Positions 51,589-60,365 of a stretch of 64,000 bases of DNA are shown piece after piece. Where the stretch lies: the NCBI GenBank assembly GCA_964526785.1, contig CAZGMJ010000024.1, forward strand, positions 4,731 through 68,730. The letters run 5' to 3'. How positions within the stretch are numbered: the first letter of the stretch is position 1; every line of letters starts with the position of its first letter. The position numbers were made by a program, and so were the translations under genes. The notes below the pieces were generated by a model. That model worked only from the letters and a program-made list of their open reading frames with translations. It was not told where the DNA came from and made no database searches. This DNA is from an uncultured Pirellulales bacterium. Lineage in GTDB: Bacteria > Planctomycetota > Phycisphaerae > Sedimentisphaerales > Anaerobacaceae.

Positions 51589-53004
51589 CTATACGCAACA
51601 CTTCTGGACCGCGGTCCCTTGCGGCAAGGTGAAGCACACGGCCCCATGACTTTCCTGGGTCGTCTTAACCCAGATTCGCCCGCCGTGCATCTCAATCAAC
51701 TCCTTGGCAATAGCCGGCCCCAGATTGAGTGAACTACTCTGTTCCGACTTGGCCATCTGCACATGTTCGAAGGCATTGAGTACATCCCCGAGGCCGTCCG
51801 GGCCCCCAGCGAGGTCATCGCCCTGTATCTCCACTACGAAATCAGGCCCCGCCGGGCGTACTTGCACCCCAATTCGGCCGCCGTCCCTGCTCCCATCAAT
51901 TGCGCATACCAGCAGACTGCGCAAAACCTGTTTGATGCGGACATAGTCGCCGACAACCATCCACTGCGGATCCACGCCCGATACGTCAATGGTCAATTGC
52001 CTTTCACCGGCCAGTGACGCAAGCGCTTCTGACACATTTGAAATCGCCGTATCGAGGGGGAACTCCTGCCTCTCCAACCTCGCTCGACCACCGCTCACAG
52101 ATAGCAAATCGTGAAAATCATGAATGAGGCCCCTGGCGTCTTCCGTCCGATTCTGCGATAGCATCGTATCGAGCGACTTGCCCACCGCGATGGCCATTTC
52201 GTTAAGAAGACGATTCTGCTTTTCGAGTTTGGCATTGGCGCCTCGGAGTTCGTCTTCGGCGAGAATACGATCGGTAATATCGCGCCCCACGCCCACAATC
52301 GCCATATCACGTCCCTTCGTATCCTTGATGATAGACCGAGACAGTGAAACAGGAAAAATGCTGCCGTCCTGGCGTTTGTGATAGAAACCTACCTCCCAAC
52401 TGCTGCCGATGGCTCGGCTCTGGAATACGCTCCTGGTCCCATGCGTCGCTTCATTGCCGGCCCAGAGAATGCTCCCTTCTCTGCCGACAATCTCCTCTTC
52501 CTTGTATCCGTACGTCCGACAGAACGCACGGTTGACAAAGACAATCTTGTCGTCCAGATCGGTAATATATACGCTGTCGTCCGTGCTCCTGATCGCCCCG
52601 GAAAGCAGTCGCAGATGGTCCTCCGTGCGCTTGTGTCGAATTGCGTTTTCAACGGTTATGGGAAGTGCCTTAAGGTAGCTTCGATCCACGTCCTTTGTGA
52701 GATAGTCGTACGCACCTGCCTGCCAGACCTGAACTGCCACATCTTCATCGCCCGCACCGGTAACCAGAATGACCGGCGCATCTTTCACCATTGCCAACAC
52801 ATCGAGAGCTGAGCCGTCGCCTAGCGAATAGTCTGAGATGACCGCATCGAAACTTGAATCCTTCAGCACTTGCTTCGCCTCGCCGACGGACCCCGCCGTC
52901 GTGCAATCATATGGCAACTCCTCCGCTTTCACGAACCTCTCAAACGCCTTTTGGTCCAGCTTGTCGTCTTCGACAAGCAACAACTTGTACTTCACGTCGC
53001 CCAT
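51589..53004 (-). CDS. Receiver-PAS-degenerate histidine-kinase-like protein
   Basis: REC (LLLVEDD...AVISDYSLGDGS...ILVTG...YLTKD). PAS (VYITDLDDKIVFVNRAFCRTYGYKEEEIVGR). The C-terminal HATPase-like fold has eroded H, N and G1 boxes (see findings). Confidence 0.85.
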   Translation of the reverse strand: MGDVKYKLLLVEDDKLDQKAFERFVKAEELPYDCTTAGSVGEAKQVLKDSSFDAVISDYSLGDGSALDVLAMVKDAPVILVTGAGDEDVAVQVWQAGAYDYLTKDVDRSYLKALPITVENAIRHKRTEDHLRLLSGAIRSTDDSVYITDLDDKIVFVNRAFCRTYGYKEEEIVGREGSILWAGNEATHGTRSVFQSRAIGSSWEVGFYHKRQDGSIFPVSLSRSIIKDTKGRDMAIVGVGRDITDRILAEDELRGANAKLEKQNRLLNEMAIAVGKSLDTMLSQNRTEDARGLIHDFHDLLSVSGGRARLERQEFPLDTAISNVSEALASLAGERQLTIDVSGVDPQWMVVGDYVRIKQVLRSLLVCAIDGSRDGGRIGVQVRPAGPDFVVEIQGDDLAGGPDGLGDVLNAFEHVQMAKSEQSSSLNLGPAIAKELIEMHGGRIWVKTTQESHGAVCFTLPQGTAVQKCCV

Positions 53005-53009
53005 TTGTC

Positions 53010-53432
53010 TTACCCCCTTGTCGGCAACTTGCTCGCGTCTCGCATGAAATGCTCGATTATTCGCAGCGACTCCGAGAACTCCTCGAAGTCTGTCGATTTC
53101 ACAACATATGCGCATGCCCCGGCCTCCAGTGCCTTCTGTTTATCTTCGGCTTCATCCGAACCGCTTAGCGCAATGACGGGTATCGAAGCCAGGTCCGCGT
53201 CCTGTTTGACGGCATCGAGGAACTCCAGTCCGCTCATACGCGGTGCGTGCATATCCAGTATAATAGCCTCTGGCATGCTCTTTCGATCGGCCGTCAATAC
53301 CTCCAGAGCTTCGCAGCCATCCGCAACATGAACAACGTGCACCGACGCACAATGCCCTTTCAACACACGCCGCACAACCATCGCATCAATGCGGTCATCT
53401 TCTACCAATAGTATTGACCGTTCGTCCTGCAT
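53010..53432 (-). CDS. Single-domain response regulator (CheY/Rcp-like)
   Basis: ILLVEDDRID, IILDMHAPRMSG, IPVIALSGS, YVVKS. Confidence 0.9.
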   Translation of the reverse strand: MQDERSILLVEDDRIDAMVVRRVLKGHCASVHVVHVADGCEALEVLTADRKSMPEAIILDMHAPRMSGLEFLDAVKQDADLASIPVIALSGSDEAEDKQKALEAGACAYVVKSTDFEEFSESLRIIEHFMRDASKLPTRG

Positions 53433-53542
53433 TTGCGACCCCCTTTATGCCGTTCTTCGCGTTTCTCTTGATGCGTCTGCTTCATACTACTCCGTTCGGC
53501 CGTCCGATCCGCCACATGTTTTCTCATCACGTTCCGTTGCTC

Positions 53543-54037
53543 TCACTCTCTCACACCCCTTGTGCCATCCGTCGCAGCACAAGTATGTGCAGTCCCCTCC
53601 GCCTGCGCACATGCTGGTATTTCGCTGACCGCCCAATAGCGGTGCACGGCACGCATCGTCTCCAGAAAACTCGCATAGTCAATGGACTTAACCATGTAGC
53701 CGGCCGCCCCCAGATCGAAAGACCGCTCGATATCTCCTCGTTCGCTTGACGTCGTCAGTATCGTTACCGGTATCTTACGGTGCCGATCGCTCGCCTTTAG
53801 CACATCGAGGAACTCAAAACCATTCATTCGCGGCATATTGAGATCCAGCAGTATCAGGCAAGGCTGCGAACCGGCTGATTCGTTCAGATACTCTAACGCT
53901 TCCTCTCCGTTGGATCGATGAACCAATGAATTCTCCAGTTTCAGATCGCGCACCGCCCGTCGTACGGCCATCGCATCGACCATATCGTCTTCAACTAACA
54001 GTATTGGCCTCGAATCACGCACAGCCAGCCTCCACAT
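53543..54037 (-). CDS. Single-domain response regulator (CheY/Rcp-like)
   Basis: ILLVEDDMVD, LILLDLNMPRMNG, IPVTILTTS, YMVKS. The start is ATG 54037 or GTG 54022, and either overlaps the upstream gene end. Confidence 0.88.
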   Translation of the reverse strand: MWRLAVRDSRPILLVEDDMVDAMAVRRAVRDLKLENSLVHRSNGEEALEYLNESAGSQPCLILLDLNMPRMNGFEFLDVLKASDRHRKIPVTILTTSSERGDIERSFDLGAAGYMVKSIDYASFLETMRAVHRYWAVSEIPACAQAEGTAHTCAATDGTRGVRE

Positions 54038-55145
54038 GTTGTTTTGGAAAAGTAAAGTAGAATGTCGTACCCGCGCCCACCTCGGACTCCAGCCATATTC
54101 TCCCCCCGTACATCTCGACAATCTTTTTCACAACCGTCAACCCGACGCCCGTGCTTTCATAAGCGTCTGTCGCCGAGAGCGTTTGGAACATCTTGAAGAT
54201 TTTCTCATAGTACTTTTCAGCAATGCCGGGACCGTTGTCACTTACGTGGAACTTCCACATGTCCTCGTCTTCGACACAACCGACCCGCACTCGCCCTTCC
54301 GGCTTGTCCATATACTTGACTGCATTGCTCAGCAGATTCTGAAATACCTGCGATATGCGCGTATGCTCGCAAACCACAACAGGCAGTTCGCCTTCAATGG
54401 AAAAATAAATATCGACGGGCGCCGAGAGCATGTCCCATATCTCCGGAACCAGCGTATCGAGGTGCACTGTCGATGTCTGCTCCTTCTGCCTGCCCACCCT
54501 CGAATAGTGCAGAATCCCATCGATCAGCTTATGCATGCGATCTACGCGATCGGCCAGTAATTCCATCTGCTCCTTGCCTTCTTCGGTCAGCCTGTCGATA
54601 TTGTCCTCCATGATCCATTCGGCCAGTGTCTTTATGCCGCGCAGCGGAGCCTTCAGATCGTGCGACACGATCGAGGCGAAATCGTTCAACTCCCGATTCG
54701 TGTCTTCCAGATCCTTGAGAAGCTTGCTCAAATTGCGCTCCGCCCGTTTGCGCTCCACCGCATAACGGATAATCCGTACCAGTGCGAACTCCAGTGACTT
54801 GCCTTTTACGAGATAATCCTCAGCACCGTTGCGAATGGCTTCCAGCGCTAGTTCGCTGTCGGCCGCCCCCGTCAGCACAATTACGGGAACCTCGCCGCTG
54901 ACCTCGTGCACCTTCTGTACTGTCTCCAAACCGTAGCTGTCGGGCAGTCCGAGATCGAGCAGAACGATATCACTGCGCACCGCTTCCAGGTGCCGGACTG
55001 CTTCCGAAAGCGTGCCGACTGCCGTTACCTCGAAGACCACCGAATCGCACGTTTGCTTGAGCGGCATTTCGACAAGCCGGCGATCCGCGGGGTCGTCGTC
55101 AACCAGCAGGACACATATTCGCTCTTTGTCTGTATTCATCAGCAT
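54015..55145 (-). CDS. Hybrid receiver-histidine kinase (REC-HisKA-HATPase_c)
   Basis: REC (VLLVDDDPADRRL, VLLDLGLPDSYG, VIVLTG, YLVKG). H-box SIVSHDLKAPLRGI. N-box LLSNAVKY. G1 DNGPGI. G2 GVGLTVVKKIV. Confidence 0.9.
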   Translation of the reverse strand: MLMNTDKERICVLLVDDDPADRRLVEMPLKQTCDSVVFEVTAVGTLSEAVRHLEAVRSDIVLLDLGLPDSYGLETVQKVHEVSGEVPVIVLTGAADSELALEAIRNGAEDYLVKGKSLEFALVRIIRYAVERKRAERNLSKLLKDLEDTNRELNDFASIVSHDLKAPLRGIKTLAEWIMEDNIDRLTEEGKEQMELLADRVDRMHKLIDGILHYSRVGRQKEQTSTVHLDTLVPEIWDMLSAPVDIYFSIEGELPVVVCEHTRISQVFQNLLSNAVKYMDKPEGRVRVGCVEDEDMWKFHVSDNGPGIAEKYYEKIFKMFQTLSATDAYESTGVGLTVVKKIVEMYGGRIWLESEVGAGTTFYFTFPKQHVEAGCA

Positions 55146-55581
55146 GTGGGGCTCTTTTGCAAATGACAAACCAATAACCGGTAACATTGTGCAGGACTTC
55201 ATGGAAGCCTTCGAGACTTCCGGGTTTCTTGATATAACCGGCTGCCTGAAACTTGAAACTCTCGATGATATCCTTCTCGGCGTCTGATGTCGTCAATATG
55301 ACCACCGGGATGGATGCCAATCCGGGCTCGGATTTGAGCCATCGCAGAAACTCCTGACCGCCCATGCCCGGCATGTTCAAATCCAGTAGGATCAGATCGG
55401 GAAACGGCGACTGTGTATCCCCCTCCTGGCTCCGACGCAAATACGCCACCGCATCTTCCGCACTGTCGGCCACGCGAAGCTCATTCGCAATCCGATCGTT
55501 GCTCAGTGCCTTGGCCACCAGCTTCTGATCGCCGCGATCATCTTCGACCAGCAATATTATGACTTCCTGAAACAGGTCCAT
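55099..55581 (-). CDS. Single-domain response regulator (CheY/Rcp-like)
   Basis: ILLVEDDRGDQKL, LILLDLNMPGMGG, IPVVILTTS, YIKKP. The upstream 115 codons of the track ORF are an extension. Confidence 0.9.
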   Translation of the reverse strand: MDLFQEVIILLVEDDRGDQKLVAKALSNDRIANELRVADSAEDAVAYLRRSQEGDTQSPFPDLILLDLNMPGMGGQEFLRWLKSEPGLASIPVVILTTSDAEKDIIESFKFQAAGYIKKPGSLEGFHEVLHNVTGYWFVICKRAPHADEYRQRANMCPAG

Positions 55582-55586
55582 CGTCC

Positions 55587-56096
55587 TTATCCTTTCCAAT
55601 TTGCGCCGCCCGCCTCGTGCACCACAGTGGCGTCGCAGACGTTCTGACTCCGCACAACAGACTGAGGCCCTTGAACAACCGCACCGTAGCCGAACCAGTA
55701 CATCAATAGATTCTCCATGATTCGCTTCAGATCGCCGCCCGAAGGCTTCTGTACATACCCCGCCGACTGCATCGCATAACACGCCTGGATATCTTCCTCC
55801 GAATCCGAGGTTGTCAGGACTACCACCGGAATTGTGCAGAGACGCGGCCTGGACTTGACATGCATAAGAAATTCCCGGCCGCCCATACCGGGCATGTTCA
55901 GATCCAACAGGATCAAATGCGGCCACGGGCTTTCTACATCGCCCTCCTCGCTCCGTGCAAGATATCTCAAAGCCTCCTCGGCACTGGGAACCACATGCAG
56001 CATTACGTCTATCGACTGACTGCTCAACGCCTGCTTTGCCAGCTTCTGATCGGCCGGGTCATCCTCCACCAATAGTATCACAAACGAATTCATCAT
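55587..56096 (-). CDS. Single-domain response regulator (CheY/Rcp-like)
   Basis: ILLVEDDPADQKL, LILLDLNMPGMGG, IPVVVLTTS, YVQKP. It starts 5 nt after the kinase stop. Confidence 0.9.
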   Translation of the reverse strand: MMNSFVILLVEDDPADQKLAKQALSSQSIDVMLHVVPSAEEALRYLARSEEGDVESPWPHLILLDLNMPGMGGREFLMHVKSRPRLCTIPVVVLTTSDSEEDIQACYAMQSAGYVQKPSGGDLKRIMENLLMYWFGYGAVVQGPQSVVRSQNVCDATVVHEAGGANWKG

Positions 56097-56100
56097 GCTC

Positions 56101-57705
56101 TTACTCCACTGTGCTGCAGCCTGCTCCGACCCGATGTGTATCGTCTGCACGAACCGGCTGGCCGGATCCGTCCGCCGACAACGTAAACCAGAAAGTCGAA
56201 CCGTCGCCGTAGACGGACTCGACGCCTATCTGGCCGCCGTGTCGCTCAACAATCTTTCTGCAGACCGCTAACCCGATACCCGTACCCTCGTATTCCGACC
56301 GGGCATGCAGCCGTCGAAACATCACAAAGACGTTCTCCGTCTGCTCGCGTTTTATGCCGATGCCGTTGTCCTGTACCTCAACGCGTAGCCGGCCGTTCTG
56401 TTGCCGAATCGATCGGATCGTGATCTCAGGGATCACGCCCTCCCCCCTGTACTTGATTGCATTGCAAACCAGGTTCTGAAGCAACTGTCGTATCTGCGCA
56501 GGATCGCCCTGCACGGCGCCGAGCGGCTCCGGAACGTTGATGCGCGCATTGCTCTCCTCAATCATGACAGCCAACTCCACGCTCTCCAACTGCCGCACGA
56601 TTTCATCAAGATCGACCGGTCCAAAATCCACACCTTTGGTCGTTACGCGCGAGTATTCGAGCAATGCCTCAATCATCTGCTGCATCCGATCAGCACCGTC
56701 CACCATGAACGTAAGGTTCTCCCGGTCGTCGTCGTCGAGCTTGTCTTTTAGAGATTCCCAGAGCAACTGCCCGAAGGCTGTTATCTTTCTTGTCGGTTCT
56801 CTCAAATCGTGTGACGCGACGTATGTGAACTCCTGCAATTGACGGTTGGATTCACTCAACCTGTCGTTCATATCCTGTAACGACGCTTCCACACCGGCCC
56901 GTCGCACGATCTCCTCCTTGAGTTGGCTGTTGGCCGCCGATAGTTCTGCTGTACGCTCTTCGACTTTCGTCTCCAGTTCCGCCTTCGCCTCGACCAGTTG
57001 TCTTTCGCGATGCTCGATGCGCTCCAGCATGTCGTTAAAGGCGTCAACGAACAGGCCGAGTTCGTCATTGCTCGATTTCACAGCCCGTCGAGAGTAGTCC
57101 TCATCTTCGGAAACAGCTCGGGCCACTTCTGCCAACTCCCGGACCGGGGCGCTGATGATCCGCTGTAGTTTGCAGGAGACGAGATAAGCCATCCCTAACG
57201 CTGCTATGGCAACGAGAACGACCGCCCGCATTTCCGCCCAGAACTGAGAATCCGTCTCGCGCAGATCCATCTGGAGAAATACCGTCCCGATAAGTGCATC
57301 ATCTTCACGCAGTCTCTCGAAGATCTTCAGGTAACTGCCCTCGAACCAGCACCGTTCCCCCTCGCATGCGGGAACCGAGAAAGCGTCTTCCACGTGGACG
57401 TTCTTGTGCGTCGCAAGAACGCCGCCATCGCGGTCGTACATACACGCAAATACAATCGACGGCTCCGCTCTCAGAGATTGTAGAATATCCGCCGCCGTTT
57501 CGGCATCATATGATTCCAATGCGCCGCGACAACTGTCGCCTATGATGTGTGCATAGCAGGATATGCTGTTGACCGCCCTCGCATACTGCGCATTCCGCTG
57601 ATGCAGCACCTGAACGACGCTGCTCACCGCAATCGCGGCCATGCAAGTGGCCATGATGATGGCAATCAGCTTGTGCTGGATCGCCGTTTTGAACTTGCGT
57701 CTCAT
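56101..57705 (-). CDS. Membrane sensor histidine kinase (TM-sensor-TM-HAMP-coiled coil-HisKA-HATPase_c)
   Basis: Two TM helices flank a ~135-aa extracytoplasmic domain. HAMP (ISAPVRELAEVARAV). H-box YVASHDLREPTRKI. N-box LVCNAIKY. G1 DNGIGI. G2 GTGIGLAVCRKIV. Confidence 0.9.
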   Translation of the reverse strand: MRRKFKTAIQHKLIAIIMATCMAAIAVSSVVQVLHQRNAQYARAVNSISCYAHIIGDSCRGALESYDAETAADILQSLRAEPSIVFACMYDRDGGVLATHKNVHVEDAFSVPACEGERCWFEGSYLKIFERLREDDALIGTVFLQMDLRETDSQFWAEMRAVVLVAIAALGMAYLVSCKLQRIISAPVRELAEVARAVSEDEDYSRRAVKSSNDELGLFVDAFNDMLERIEHRERQLVEAKAELETKVEERTAELSAANSQLKEEIVRRAGVEASLQDMNDRLSESNRQLQEFTYVASHDLREPTRKITAFGQLLWESLKDKLDDDDRENLTFMVDGADRMQQMIEALLEYSRVTTKGVDFGPVDLDEIVRQLESVELAVMIEESNARINVPEPLGAVQGDPAQIRQLLQNLVCNAIKYRGEGVIPEITIRSIRQQNGRLRVEVQDNGIGIKREQTENVFVMFRRLHARSEYEGTGIGLAVCRKIVERHGGQIGVESVYGDGSTFWFTLSADGSGQPVRADDTHRVGAGCSTVE

Positions 57706-57729
57706 AATCGATGCATATCCCCACTTTTG

Positions 57730-57745
57730 TGCAATTTACGCCCCT
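57730..57745 (-). promoter_or_regulatory. Candidate sigma54 (-24/-12) promoter in front of the sensor kinase operon
   Basis: The minus-strand sequence AGGGGCGTAAATTGCA has GG-N10-GC spacing and a perfect TTGCA -12 element. The -24 half (AGGGGCG vs TGGCACG) is weaker. It lies only about 25 nt upstream of the ATG at 57705, which is uncomfortably close. Confidence 0.25.
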
Positions 57746-58697
57746 ACCGACTTATCCAGACAATTGGCCTTTCCGCTTCACCAGTGTCAACATCTCGAAA
57801 ACAAGTCTGCTCACACCGACTCCCATCGCATCCTTCGGACGGTACAGGATTCTCTGGCACGTTTGCCGCAAGCGCCTCGACCGGTCCTCTCTTTCTGGTT
57901 CCCGAAGACATATCCCAACTGATGCCAGTCAGCATCAAGCCGGCGAAGACTACCAAAGTGTAGATTCGGCACTTCAACATTGCACCATAGTATTTCTCAT
58001 ACCGTTTCCAATATCCTGCGGCCTCACCGCGTTTCCAGACAGTAACTGACCGGCATGGACGCTGCGATATACAGCATCTCAAAATCGTCCGGTCAATCGG
58101 GACCGAACCGCGTGTCGTATCCTTCTATCGTCTGCAAAACGCTGCTGTTTGAGCAGAATTCCCGACCAGCGGCATCAAAACGCCCTCATTGCCCGCTCTT
58201 ATCCGGCACGAGAGCATTACCGGACGGCGGCCCGGCGAGTCAGGAGACACAGTTCGCTCCTCTGAACAACTACGGACCATGTAATTGCCAAGCCGCTGCG
58301 CACACTCCGTCCCCCGATGCGCTCTATTCGGACCGCCCGCAATTTCCCCCTGCTGGCACGTTTGGGCCGCCCGTGAGAAGGCACGGCAAATCATTTACAA
58401 AGATTTGCCGGTGCATTAAGTCGGTTGTGCAGTTGACCGATAGGAGGAGGGTCGAATGGTTGTATCATGGCTTCGGAGTAAAAGGGTGCTGTATGTTTCG
58501 TAAGTCGCGCAAAACAGATTCATCGTTGCAAACAAGTCCTGTGATCCGCTGGTATCCCAGCAGCCGAAGCTGCACCAATAACCCGCAGCGCAAAGTCAAA
58601 CACAGACAAATGCCGCCGTTGATGGTCCGAAAAGCGGATTGGCGCAGATAACTCTATGGCCCGTCCCTCCATACTCCCGCCTGCTTTCCCTTGAGAT

Positions 58698-60083
58698 CTA
58701 TAGCAGCCCCAGTTGCCGCGCCTCGGCGTAGAGACCATACTGCTTCATCTTTTTGAAAAGCGTAGTCCGATTAATGCCGAGTGCCTCAGCCGTCTCCTTG
58801 CGATTCCAGTTATGCCGGCGCAGAGCCGACCGAATCAGGGCCGCTTCGTGCCGCACCATCGCTTCTTTCAACGGCATTTCATCACCGCATGCCCCCAACT
58901 CATTCGACGGCTGCAGGAGTTTATCGGGCAGGTCATCAACCCCGACGAATGTGCCTTTGCTCAATAAGGCTGCTCGCTCCACCACATTCTCCAACTCTCG
59001 GACGTTCCCGGGCCAGCCGTAACGTTCGAGACGCTCGATGGCTTCGTCCGTAAATCGCAAGATGCGCTTCCGATGGCGCAGAGAGTATACTTCGAGAAAA
59101 TACTCCGCCAGCAGTCGCACATCTCCGATACGCTCCCACAAGGGCGGCAGGTCAATAGTCACAACATTGATACGGTAAAACAGATCTTCCCGGAATCTGC
59201 CGCGGCGCACCTCTTCTTCAAGCCTTCGATTGGACGCCAGAAGCACCCGCGTATCAACGGTTATCGTCTGATTGCTCCCCACCGGCTCGAACCGTTTGTT
59301 CTCCAGAACGCGCAGCAGTTTCGTCTGCAGACCGGGCGAAGCGTTCGATATTTCGTCGAGGAAGATCGTGCCTCCGTCTGCCGCCACAAATTTTCCCGCT
59401 TTGTCGACGACGGCGCCGGTGAAAGAACCGCGGACGTGCCCGAACAATTCGCTCTCCAGGAGCGTTTCCGGAATCGCACCGCAACTGACCTCAACAAATC
59501 GCTGGTCCCGCCGACTCGAATGCTGATGTATCACTCTGGCCAGCATGCTCTTGCCCGTTCCCGAAGGACCAGTCATCAAAACCGTCGCCGAGGTGTCGGC
59601 AACTGCCTCGACCAATTCGAAGATACGCATCATCTTGTAGTTCTGGCTGATAATGCTGTCCAGACTGCGTTTGCGTTGCAGTTGCAGACGTAAATCCTCG
59701 TTTTCACTGATGAGTGACTGCTGTTTCAACGCCCTCGCTACCGCCATCCGCAAATCATCGTCGATCACCGGCTTTGTCAGATAGTCATAGGCCCCAAGCT
59801 TGATCGCCCGCACCGCACTCTCTATCGTCCCATATCCTGCAATCACGATGACAACCGTATGCGGATGCTCGATCGTCACCGCCTCCAGCAGTTCGAGCCC
59901 ACTCCCATCGGGCAGATTCAGGTCTGTGATGATCAGGCCAAAGTCCTCCCCACTGAGCCGCTCCAGAGCCGCCCTCCGACTTGCCACACCGACGGCCGCA
60001 TAGCCTTCAGCCGATAGAAAGTCGCAAAGAGAATCCAGTATTACCTGATCCTCGTCGACGACAAGAATGCGCTTCTTCTTCAT
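58698..60083 (-). CDS. Sigma54-dependent response regulator (NtrC family: REC-AAA+-HTH_8)
   Basis: REC (ILVVDEDQ..., LIITDLNLPDGSG). Walker A GPSGTGKS. ESELFGHVRGSFTGA (GAFTGA-type loop). C-terminal ETAEALGINRTTLFKKMKQYGL. The start is uncertain (60083, 60101 or 60140). Confidence 0.9.
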   Translation of the reverse strand: MKKKRILVVDEDQVILDSLCDFLSAEGYAAVGVASRRAALERLSGEDFGLIITDLNLPDGSGLELLEAVTIEHPHTVVIVIAGYGTIESAVRAIKLGAYDYLTKPVIDDDLRMAVARALKQQSLISENEDLRLQLQRKRSLDSIISQNYKMMRIFELVEAVADTSATVLMTGPSGTGKSMLARVIHQHSSRRDQRFVEVSCGAIPETLLESELFGHVRGSFTGAVVDKAGKFVAADGGTIFLDEISNASPGLQTKLLRVLENKRFEPVGSNQTITVDTRVLLASNRRLEEEVRRGRFREDLFYRINVVTIDLPPLWERIGDVRLLAEYFLEVYSLRHRKRILRFTDEAIERLERYGWPGNVRELENVVERAALLSKGTFVGVDDLPDKLLQPSNELGACGDEMPLKEAMVRHEAALIRSALRRHNWNRKETAEALGINRTTLFKKMKQYGLYAEARQLGLL

Positions 60084-60365
60084 CTTCCTGCCCGACCTCA
60101 TTGCCTCGCGGCCGCTGCCGTGCACCTGCCTCAGCCGCACCTTTGATGTGCGCTCACAACATTCGATGTTGCTCTACGGCAACACATATGACGTGTTTTC
60201 GGATCATAATGCAGGTCCCTTAAGCTGGAAGCGGATTGCCTGATAAGACGGCCACCTGAAAGTCTGTGCTTGCGAACACCAGGCGTGAATAAGTGAGGTA
60301 TGAAGACCGGCTGTACAATCTCTATTTCGCAATATCGAGGATTCTGCGCACGCCGTGCTTGCTTT

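What the first reader, a model, noticed from the sequence alone, without database searches (positions are those of the whole stretch)
51589..57705. Seven consecutive two-component genes: three kinase cores, six receiver domains, no output domain
The minus-strand order is TM-HAMP kinase, REC, REC, REC-kinase, REC, REC, REC-PAS-kinase-like. The genes are tightly packed: gaps are 0-6 nt or overlaps, apart from one 110-nt gap at 53433-53542. The four stand-alone receivers are close paralogues of the Rcp/CheY type (LLVEDD...ILLDLNMPxMxG...IPVxxLTTS...YxxKP). The intact kinases carry the SHDL[KR]xP H-box. The block contains no DNA-binding, GGDEF/EAL, Hpt or chemotaxis domain. The only candidate effector is the sigma54 activator about 1 kb upstream (58698-60083). 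The wiring cannot be read from sequence: who phosphorylates whom, whether the receivers act as phosphate sinks, whether this is a branched relay. This density of output-less receivers is unusual.
Basis: partly seen in the sequence, partly recalled or inferred. Interest (0 to 1): 0.6.

Follow-up and report, generated by a model that had tools for sequence, protein, structure and literature searches.

The report
Two-tier kinase cascade ending in pseudokinase
Seven back-to-back bacterial signalling genes are real; they look like an expanded version of a three-gene module common in one group of planctomycetes, whose last protein is a receiver fused to a "dead" kinase that probably acts as the pathway's output, which makes this an interesting variant of known designs, not a new kind of system.

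Summary
Seven minus-strand genes (51589-57705) encode CHASE8-HAMP-HK (A), REC (B), REC (C), REC-HK (D), REC (E), REC (F) and REC-PAS-degenerate HK (G). Spacing is -47 to +5 nt, apart from one 110-nt gap. No Hpt, DNA-binding, GGDEF/EAL or Che domain was found.

The genome is a Sedimentisphaerales (Phycisphaerae, Planctomycetota) MAG. About 45 related genomes carry a shorter core: sensor HK, Rcp-type stand-alone receiver, REC-PAS-(pseudo)HK. The window has the longest version seen.

Trees and specificity-region signatures split the block into two tiers:
- A with B, C and D's receiver.
- D with E, F and G's receiver.

G belongs to a populous, uncharacterised family. In 121 members:
- The phospho-accepting His is Glu in 115 (Lys here).
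- The N-box Asn is Arg in 105 (Cys here).
- The G2 glycines are lost.
- The receiver Asp is invariant.

I read G as the terminal response regulator with a non-catalytic PAS-pseudokinase output. The stand-alone receivers would be branches or sinks. None of the phosphotransfer is shown.

Comparison with relatives does not support a link to the neighbouring sigma54 activator.

The closest precedents are BphP1-AgR-ExsG-ExsF, RedCDEF and DivL. This scan has flagged other multi-kinase clusters with histidine-less kinases on other DNA. Verdict: new variant of a known kind, moderate interest.

The parts
56101..57705 (-). A: membrane sensor histidine kinase (two TM segments, CHASE8 periplasmic domain, HAMP, HisKA with SHDLREP, intact HATPase_c). 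Proposed tier-1 kinase.
   Evidence: Pfam. The N, G1, F and G2 boxes are intact in the alignment. The kinase core falls in a separate 'A-type' clade that is always followed by r-r-RK. In 12 related loci, CHASE8 kinases are preceded by YfiR/DUF4154 (8e-38) and a TonB-receptor plug protein. The window genome lacks YfiR.
55587..56096 (-). B: stand-alone receiver (start at MMNSFV), 4 nt after A
   Evidence: Pfam REC 64 bits. All phospho-site residues are present. The B clade is found only in loci with an A-type kinase. Its alpha1 signature is DQKL.
55099..55581 (-). C: stand-alone receiver, 53% identical to B. Its tail overlaps the start of D.
54015..55145 (-). D: receiver fused directly to an intact HisKA/HATPase_c core (SHDLKAP). 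Proposed tier-2 kinase controlled by its own receiver.
   Evidence: Pfam. The kinase core nests in the clade of kinases that precede r-G in relatives. Its receiver alpha1 signature, DRRL, resembles that of B and C.
53543..54022 (-). E: stand-alone receiver of the widely conserved Rcp-like type. Likely start is GTG 54022 behind GGAGG-N6. The alternative is ATG 54037.
   Evidence: It is an orthologue of the receiver found between kinase and G in most related loci. The best solved structures are phytochrome response regulators.
53433..53542 (.). 110-nt spacer between E and F. No promoter-like or terminator-like site was predicted inside it.
53010..53432 (-). F: divergent paralogue of E (40% identity, long branch) with its own Shine-Dalgarno sequence. 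It keeps the E-type alpha1 signature DAMxVRR.
51589..53004 (-). G: REC-PAS-pseudo-histidine kinase. It has Lys276 at the phospho-His position, Cys367 at the N-box Asn, degenerate G1 and G2 boxes and a shortened DHp hairpin. The receiver is intact.
   Evidence: Pfam shows no HisKA. Alignments. AlphaFold model: helices 244-283 and 287-304, then an alpha/beta CA domain, with pLDDT 81-93 over residues 260-390. Foldseek returns PAS-DHp-CA kinases, DivL and NifL. Orthologues at 46-61% identity occur in many Sedimentisphaerales genomes.
58698..60083 (-). Neighbour, probably a separate system: NtrC-type REC-AAA+-HTH sigma54 activator
   Evidence: Pfam. It is 69% identical to the G001 orthologue, which has an adjacent PAS-HK. 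No orthologue of that kinase was found in this assembly.
57730..57745 (-). Weak sigma54-like motif (AGGGGCGTAAATTGCA) 25 nt before the start of A
   Evidence: It scores 9 of 12 consensus positions. No counterpart was found upstream of A-type genes in four relatives.

Best explanation
The block is one operon. It encodes a two-tier histidine-kinase cascade built on a module that is conserved in Sedimentisphaerales.

Tier 1. The membrane kinase A senses something at the envelope through a YfiN-type CHASE8 domain. It phosphorylates the stand-alone receivers B and C and the receiver of D.

Tier 2. The phosphorylation state of D's receiver sets the activity of D's own kinase core. D in turn phosphorylates the stand-alone receivers E and F and the receiver of G.

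Output. G is the terminal response regulator. Its output is not enzymatic. It is a strongly conserved PAS domain plus a catalytically dead DHp/CA module. This probably acts through protein-protein contacts, for example on other kinases of the same subfamily.

The four stand-alone receivers act as parallel branches or phosphate sinks that shape timing and gain.

What is shown: the domain content, intact or dead catalytic residues, conserved gene order, and clade and signature partitioning. What is inferred: every phosphotransfer step, the sign of the REC-to-kinase control in D, and what G binds.
For: One operon:
- Tight spacing and overlaps.
- No predicted internal terminator in the gaps.

Conserved core:
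- K-r-G, or K-r-g-K, occurs in about 45 related loci.
- cK-r-r-RK-G occurs in L023, L025 and L044. cK-r-r-RK-r-G occurs in L012.

Partitioning into two tiers:
- Kinase tree: A-type cores form their own clade. D nests among kinases that precede r-G.
- Receiver tree: five orthologous groups. The B and C groups occur only where an A-type kinase is present; the D-REC group does so in five of six loci, and its sixth member (L043) shows no A-type kinase in the stretch held.
- Specificity regions. DHp alpha1 after the His reads REPTRKITsFGQLL in A-type and KAPLRGIKTLAnWI in D-type, each conserved within its clade.
- Receiver alpha1 reads DQKL/DRRL in B, C and D-REC, against DAMxVRR in E and F.

G as the constant partner:
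- G follows a D-type kinase even in loci without a stand-alone receiver: L023, L025, L028, L041 and L044.

G family, 121 sequences:
- His position: Glu 115, Asp 3, Lys 2, Ala 1.
- N-box Asn: Arg 105.
- Receiver Asp: 121 of 121.
- No member has a Pfam HisKA hit.
- REC-PAS holds most of the invariant columns.

Precedent: BphP1 phosphorylates AgR and the receiver of the REC-kinase ExsG. Receiver phosphorylation inhibits ExsG, and ExsG phosphorylates ExsF (PMC3899027).
Against: - No expression or phosphotransfer data exist.
- G's receiver alpha1 (DQKAF here, DQMAF in the family) is intermediate between the two signature classes. Its donor is therefore ambiguous.
- The sister species G001 has A-B-C-D-G without E or F. 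The stand-alone receivers of tier 2 are therefore dispensable.
- The window's G departs from its own family at the conserved replacement residues: Lys instead of Glu, Cys instead of Arg, and an altered G1.
- Many relatives carry a REC-PAS protein with no pseudokinase part at all. The pseudokinase module may be decaying here rather than functional.
- The AlphaFold model is only moderately confident (mean pLDDT 68.8).
- With about 50 related, non-independent loci, the clade co-occurrence is suggestive, not statistical proof.
Confidence: 0.45

Rival explanations
1. The neighbouring NtrC-type sigma54 activator (58698-60083) is the real output. Having lost its own kinase, it is now phosphorylated by A or D. 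The receivers compete with it as sinks.
For: - It lies on the same strand, 1 kb upstream.
- The PAS-HK that sits between dapF and the activator in sister species G001 is absent from this position. It has no orthologue (best hit 29% identity) in the 97.8%-complete assembly.
- rpoN is present.
- A sigma54-like motif lies before gene A, which would allow a feedback loop.
Against: - The activator's receiver alpha1 (ILDSLCDFLS) is unchanged from the G001 orthologue, which has its own kinase. It is unlike the signatures of receivers B to G.
- Adjacency to the cluster is seen only in this genus. Related modules in other genera have no activator beside them.
- The promoter-like motif scores only 9 of 12 and is not conserved.
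- The assembly has 162 contigs, so a relocated kinase could be missed.
Confidence: 0.12
2. G works like DivL or RedE. The dead kinase docks the phosphorylated stand-alone receivers E and F on its DHp. It either reads their state and passes it backwards through PAS, or acts as their dedicated phosphatase.
For: - G lacks the His and has a degenerate ATP lid, yet is conserved.
- It sits directly after a stand-alone receiver in most loci.
- The DivL DHp-CA structure 4q20 is among the fold matches, with TM 0.66-0.71 normalised to the target.
- DivL and RedE are experimental precedents (PMC4211667 and PMC5361649; PMC2755868).
Against: - In the window protein and most relatives the DHp hairpin is about 28 residues shorter than in A or D. 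The helix ends 7 residues after the His-equivalent position. That removes the part of the bundle where receivers normally dock (established knowledge from the HK853-RR468 complex).
- Several loci have G without any stand-alone receiver. Many have REC-PAS without the pseudokinase part.
Confidence: 0.15
3. There is no cascade. The block is a product of tandem duplication holding two or three independent, insulated pathways (A with B and C; D with E and F; G on its own). They merely share a transcript.
For: - Clusters of receivers are common in this genome: C52, C5, C7, C6, C40 and C65.
- Related loci show many permutations, such as K-r-K-r-G and K-r-G-K-r, typical of duplication and shuffling.
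- B/C and E/F are paralogue pairs.
Against: - D has no sensor domain other than its receiver, so it needs an upstream donor.
- The D-REC clade occurs in loci with an A-type kinase in five of six cases, the exception being L043, and shares the alpha1 signature of B and C.
- G always follows a D-type kinase.
Confidence: 0.2

Closest known systems
BphP1-AgR-ExsG-ExsF cluster of Rhizobium NT-26 / Agrobacterium (PMC3899027)
   Same: - A gene cluster made only of two-component parts.
- A sensor kinase phosphorylates an Rcp-type stand-alone receiver and the N-terminal receiver of a REC-kinase.
- That REC-kinase in turn phosphorylates another stand-alone receiver.
- There is no classical output domain.
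- Here A, B/C, D and E/F have the same architecture. E's best solved relatives are phytochrome response regulators.
   Different: - The sensor here is a CHASE8-HAMP membrane kinase, not a phytochrome.
- D has a HisKA core, not an HWE core.
- Each receiver is duplicated.
- A seventh gene, the REC-PAS-pseudokinase, ends the array and has no counterpart in the ExsG cluster.
- Phosphotransfer is untested here.
RedCDEF 'four-component' system of Myxococcus xanthus (PMC2755868)
   Same: An operon combining a true kinase, a kinase-like protein that cannot autophosphorylate, and receivers without output domains. Signalling is by phosphate routing among them.
   Different: - RedE keeps a phospho-accepting His and receives phosphate from RedD. 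G has no His (Lys here, Glu in the family) and carries its own receiver and a PAS domain.
- There is no dual-receiver protein here.
DivJ/PleC-DivK-DivL of Caulobacter (PMC4211667, PMC5361649)
   Same: A histidine-less, ATPase-independent kinase homologue is used as a signalling part next to a stand-alone receiver. G's model superposes on DivL DHp-CA, 4q20.
   Different: - DivL has Tyr at the His position, a full-length DHp that docks DivK~P, several PAS domains and a membrane anchor. It has no receiver.
- G has Glu/Lys, a shortened DHp and an N-terminal receiver.
YfiBNR envelope-stress system of Pseudomonas (PMC3375315, PMC4887326)
   Same: A's periplasmic domain is CHASE8, the YfiN-type sensor. 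In 12 related loci the CHASE8 kinase is preceded by a YfiR/DUF4154 gene.
   Different: - The output here is a histidine kinase, not a GGDEF cyclase.
- The window genome has no YfiR gene.
- YfiB was not searched for.
NifL (PAS-PAS-H-GHKL anti-activator of NifA)
   Same: It is a PAS-containing kinase homologue that does not phosphorylate and acts through protein contacts. NifL-NifA (9qq6) and NifL PAS1 (2gj3) are among the structure and sequence matches of G.
   Different: - No conserved pairing of G with a sigma54 activator.
- G has a receiver.
- Flavin binding by G's PAS is only a lead from sequence similarity.

Membership tests
HisKA-type sensor histidine kinase (genes A and D) | Phospho-accepting His in an H-box within a HisKA/DHp domain | tested here: met
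   SHDLREP in A and SHDLKAP in D. Pfam HisKA scores 37.8 and 45.9 bits against a cut-off of 26.9.
HisKA-type sensor histidine kinase (genes A and D) | Intact N, G1, F and G2 boxes of the HATPase_c domain | tested here: met
   A has NAIKY, DNGIGI, FVMF and GTGIGL. D has NAVKY, DNGPGI, FKMF and STGVGL. HATPase_c scores 97 and 102 bits.
HisKA-type sensor histidine kinase (gene G) | Phospho-accepting His | tested here: not met
   Lys276 in the window. Among 121 family members: Glu 115, Asp 3, Lys 2, Ala 1. His is kept only in L029 and L038. There is no Pfam HisKA hit.
HisKA-type sensor histidine kinase (gene G) | ATP-binding residues (N-box Asn, G1 DxGxG, G2 GxGxG) | tested here: not met
   In the window, Asn is replaced by Cys, G1 reads QGDDL and G2 reads SLNLGP. 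In the family, Asn is replaced by Arg in 105 of 121, and G2 reads DLALGL.
Receiver (REC) domain, phosphorylatable | Acidic pair, phospho-acceptor Asp, Thr/Ser and Lys | tested here: met
   All six receivers of the block and the NtrC receiver keep them. G's Asp58 is invariant in 121 of 121.
Rcp / phytochrome-associated stand-alone response regulators | Closest sequence relatives are Rcp1, RcpA, RcpB and bacteriophytochrome response regulators | tested here: met
   For E: 5brj at 3e-24, 5ic5 at 6e-24, the 8avv fusion at 2e-20, RcpA at 5e-18, RcpB at 9e-17 and Rcp1 at 5e-16. CheY scores about 1e-10 to 1e-11.
Rcp / phytochrome-associated stand-alone response regulators | Partner kinase is a phytochrome (PAS-GAF-PHY photosensor) | tested here: not met
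   A has CHASE8-HAMP and D has only a receiver. There are no GAF or PHY hits.
His-Asp-His-Asp phosphorelay | An Hpt domain or Spo0B-like phosphotransferase | tested here: not met
   No Hpt hit at E <= 0.01 in any of the seven proteins. Tails are 30 residues or fewer. G's C-terminus folds as DHp-CA. G lacks a His at the DHp site.
BphP1-AgR-ExsG-ExsF-type branched kinase cascade | Gene set: sensor HK, stand-alone receiver, REC-HK, stand-alone receiver | tested here: met
   A, B/C, D and E/F in that order. The precedent was read.
BphP1-AgR-ExsG-ExsF-type branched kinase cascade | HK1 phosphorylates the receiver of the REC-HK, and this changes the REC-HK's autokinase activity | not testable with these tools
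   There is only indirect support: clade co-occurrence and alpha1 signatures.
DivL-like pseudokinase | Full-length DHp that docks a phosphorylated stand-alone receiver | tested here: not met
   The DHp is about 28 residues shorter than in A or D. Helix 1 ends 7 residues after position 276. Binding itself is not testable here.
YfiBNR-like envelope sensing | CHASE8 sensor domain with a YfiR (DUF4154) partner gene | tested here: inconclusive
   CHASE8 in A scores 30.5 bits against a cut-off of 27. YfiR is present before CHASE8 kinases in 12 related loci, including sister species G001. It is absent from the window genome by tblastn.
NtrC-family sigma54 activator (neighbour 58698-60083) | REC + Sigma54_activat AAA+ + Fis-type HTH | tested here: met
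   83, 220 and 49 bits respectively. rpoN is present in the genome.

The most novel reading that the evidence does not exclude
The REC-PAS-pseudokinase family is a previously undescribed class of phospho-switched, non-catalytic kinase homologue. In it His is fixed as Glu, the N-box Asn is fixed as Arg, and the DHp is shortened. It would serve as the terminal output of Rcp-type kinase modules in Phycisphaerae. It could do so by pairing with and gating other kinases of the same subfamily: the 'post-G' kinases encoded right after it in many relatives, which are represented in this genome by an orphan PAS-kinase on contig C32. That would link kinases into chains without any transcription factor in the locus.
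Probability: 0.25. Interest if true: 0.6.

Novelty: new variant of a known kind. Interest (0 to 1): 0.42.

Why it matters
- How stand-alone (Rcp-type) receivers and histidine-less kinase homologues produce an output is an open problem in two-component signalling.
- This locus, with about 45 simpler relatives, offers a natural series: K-G, K-r-G, K-r-g-K, cK-r-r-RK-G and cK-r-r-RK-r-r-G. Adding a kinase tier, adding receivers or losing the pseudokinase part can be compared across it.
- The conserved Glu-for-His and Arg-for-Asn replacements in more than 100 sequence clusters argue for a repurposed function, not a decaying one. That function could be tested with a handful of purified proteins.
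- The organisms are uncultured anaerobic planctomycetes, so any physiological role is out of reach for now. The general design (kinase cascades, pseudokinases, receiver sinks) is already known. The value is as a clean comparative model, not as a new principle.

Tried and rejected
1. Sigma54 promoter before gene A. The motif at 57730-57745 scores 9 of 12. Nothing at 8 of 12 or better was found upstream of A-type genes in L023, L012, L025 or L044. It was not used as evidence.
3. Relics of the G001 PAS-HK, of YfiR or of the TonB-type receptor in the 1-kb gap 57706-58697 or between dapF and the activator. tblastn found nothing better than E 0.01.
4. Rfam on 57600-58800. No match at E <= 1.
5. A conserved non-signalling effector gene next to the module. 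Clustering of all ORFs in about 50 related loci gave three kinds of result:
   - antisense shadow ORFs;
   - YfiR and a TonB-receptor gene upstream of CHASE8 kinases;
   - generic ABC-ATPase or sugar-epimerase neighbours in one subgroup.
6. LOV photochemistry for G's PAS. The Cys of GxNCRFLQ is Gly in the family consensus (GKNGNILW) and in the window (GREGSILW).
7. Literature on two-component systems of Sedimentisphaerales. Nothing relevant was found.
8. A statistical partner prediction (DCA) was not attempted. There are too few, non-independent loci, and no large training set was available in the sandbox.

Full report
**What is there**

The minus strand carries seven genes:
- A, 56101-57705: two TM segments, CHASE8, HAMP, HisKA, HATPase_c.
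- B, 55587-56096: REC.
- C, 55099-55581: REC.
- D, 54015-55145: REC-HisKA-HATPase_c.
- E, 53543-54022: REC.
- F, 53010-53432: REC.
- G, 51589-53004: REC-PAS, then a weak HATPase_c with no HisKA hit.

Junctions:
- A|B: +4 nt.
- B|C: +5 nt.
- C|D: -41 to -47 nt.
- D|E: -8 nt. E most likely starts at GTG 54022 behind GGAGG-N6, which also matches the N-terminus of its orthologues.
- E|F: +110 nt.
- F|G: +5 nt.

No promoter-like or terminator-like site falls in the gaps. A and D have complete H, N, G1, F and G2 boxes. All six receivers keep the residues needed for phosphorylation. No Hpt, DNA-binding, GGDEF/EAL or Che domain appears at E <= 0.01. The tails after the receivers are too short to hide one.

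**Where it comes from**

The window is contig C24 of a 5.87-Mb, 97.8%-complete assembly with 55 receiver domains. Record titles of the closest relatives name Sedimentisphaerales, Phycisphaerae and Planctomycetota MAGs. The 'Pirellulales' labels are on automated bins.

**The block is an expansion of a conserved module**

G has full-length orthologues (46-61% identity) in many genera of the same family. I labelled all ORFs in about 50 related loci with HMMs built from the window's domains. In the notation below, K is a kinase, cK a CHASE8 kinase, r a stand-alone receiver and RK a receiver-kinase. The arrangements are:
- K-r-G: sensor kinase, stand-alone receiver, G. This is the commonest.
- K-r-g-K: about 17 loci. 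Here g is a 287-292-aa REC-PAS protein without the kinase-like part, followed by a large kinase.
- K-G without a receiver.
- K-r-r-G.
- K-r-K-r-G.
- cK-r-r-RK-G in L023 (same genus), L025 and L044.
- cK-r-r-RK-r-G in L012.

The window's cK-r-r-RK-r-r-G is the longest.

**Two tiers**

The kinase-core tree has three clades:
- A-type cores, always followed by r-r-RK.
- D-type cores, the kinases that precede r-G. The window's D is nested here.
- Kinases that follow G or g.

The receiver tree gives five orthologous groups: G-REC, D-REC, B, C and E. F is a long branch beside E. The B and C groups occur only in loci with an A-type kinase. The D-REC group does so in five of six loci; the exception is L043.

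The regions that set partner specificity in known systems differ between the tiers and are conserved within them:
- DHp helix 1 after the His reads REPTRKITsFGQLL in A-type and KAPLRGIKTLAnWI in D-type.
- Receiver alpha1 reads DQKL or DRRL in B, C and D-REC, and DAMxVRR in E and F.
- G-REC is intermediate, with DQKAF here and DQMAF in the family.

D has no sensor other than its receiver. The simplest reading is A to B, C and D-REC, then D to E, F and G-REC.

This is the design shown experimentally for BphP1-AgR-ExsG-ExsF. There the phytochrome kinase phosphorylates AgR and the receiver of ExsG. That phosphorylation inhibits ExsG's kinase, and ExsG phosphorylates ExsF (PMC3899027).

**The last gene**

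G is a member of a large family, not a one-off wreck. A protein search found 909 sequences at E <= 1e-20. The best 120 clusters all have REC, PAS and HATPase_c, and none has HisKA. Their names are generic.

In an alignment of 121 sequences:
- The phospho-His column holds Glu 115, Asp 3, Lys 2 (the window and a 97% twin) and Ala 1.
- The N-box Asn is Arg in 105.
- G1 keeps only D-x-G.
- G2 is DLALGL.
- The receiver Asp is invariant.

Two genome-derived orthologues keep a His.

Most members, including the window's, lack about 28 residues of the DHp hairpin. An AlphaFold model built on 60 sequences gives helices 244-283 and 287-304, followed by a confident CA-like alpha/beta domain. The hairpin therefore ends about two turns after position 276. 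Foldseek returns only PAS-DHp-CA kinases, plus the known non-phosphorylating homologues DivL, NifL and the plant phytochrome C-terminal modules. No Hpt or effector fold is hidden there.

REC-PAS carries most of the invariant columns. G is the constant companion of D-type kinases, even where the stand-alone receiver is missing. I therefore take G as the cognate, terminal response regulator, with the PAS-pseudokinase part as a non-catalytic output.

Two caveats apply:
- The window's G deviates from its family at the very residues that are fixed elsewhere.
- Many relatives do without the pseudokinase part.

The module may therefore be relaxing in this lineage.

**Input side**

CHASE8 is the YfiN-type periplasmic domain. 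In 12 related loci, including the sister species, the CHASE8 kinase is preceded by a YfiR/DUF4154 gene (8e-38) and often by a TonB-receptor plug protein. The window genome has neither.

**The sigma54 activator**

In sister species G001 the order is dapF, PAS-HK, NtrC-type activator, about 1.7 kb, YfiR, A-B-C-D-G. The window lacks both the PAS-HK and YfiR. No orthologue of that kinase exists elsewhere in the assembly.

Against it:
- The activator's receiver alpha1 is unchanged from the G001 orthologue and unlike receivers B to G.
- Adjacency is confined to this genus.
- The sigma54-like motif before A is weak and not conserved.

rpoN and six activators are present in the genome.

**Comparison and verdict**

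The parts are ordinary two-component domains. The general designs are documented: kinase cascades through REC-kinases (ExsG), four-component systems with a kinase-like protein (RedCDEF, PMC2755868) and histidine-less kinases used as sensors (DivL, PMC4211667). Notes from this scan also describe other multi-kinase clusters with histidine-less kinases on unrelated DNA.

What is particular here:
- The REC-PAS-pseudokinase family with fixed Glu and Arg replacements and a shortened DHp.
- Its strict pairing with one kinase clade.
- The graded series of array lengths, of which this window is the maximum.

I class it as a new variant of a known kind, of moderate interest. All phosphotransfer steps and the action of G remain inference.

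Noticed in passing
window 58544-58651 (minus strand): A 108-nt stretch starts 47 nt after the activator's stop codon. It is 74% identical to the same position in sister species G001 (L023 3294-3401), while the rest of the roughly 1-kb spacer shows no similarity. There is no Rfam match. It could be a 3' UTR element, a small RNA or a binding region.
   Followed up: partly
window 60084-60365 compared with L023 620-1852: Sister species G001 has a 410-aa PAS-HisKA-HATPase kinase between dapF and the sigma54 activator. The window has only about 280 nt there. The assembly holds no orthologue of that kinase (best hit 29% identity). The activator is therefore an orphan in this genome.
   Followed up: yes
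L023 4300-4902; L025 1106-4132; ten further loci: CHASE8-HAMP kinases in relatives are preceded by a YfiR/HmsC-like (DUF4154) gene and often by a TonB-dependent-receptor plug protein. This suggests a YfiR-controlled kinase input. Both genes are missing from the window genome.
   Followed up: yes
G000:C32:21428-23749 (+): An orphan 773-aa multi-PAS histidine kinase has a core 47% identical to D and 41-51% identical to the kinases that follow G in relatives. No receiver gene lies nearby. It sits beside an RND efflux pump. It is a candidate extra donor or partner for the window's receivers.
   Followed up: partly
window 52240-52620 (PAS domain of G, residues ~130-255): The best solved-structure sequence matches are flavin-binding PAS domains: MmoS 3ewk at 3e-17, Chloroflexus LOV proteins at about 1e-8 and NifL PAS1 at 2e-7. 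The LOV cysteine is Gly. The domain is the most conserved part of the family, so a redox or flavin input to G is possible.
   Followed up: partly
L048-L065 (about 17 loci): A short form of G, REC-PAS only (287-292 aa, about 61% identical over that part), is always followed by an 830-1010-aa kinase of a distinct clade. It looks like a split or alternative version of the module.
   Followed up: partly
G000 contigs C52:32538-36735, C5:33716-36365, C7:12074-14974, C6:2493-3694: The same genome has several smaller clusters of three or four receiver domains within a few kb. Dense receiver arrays are therefore a habit of this genome, not a peculiarity of this locus.
   Followed up: no
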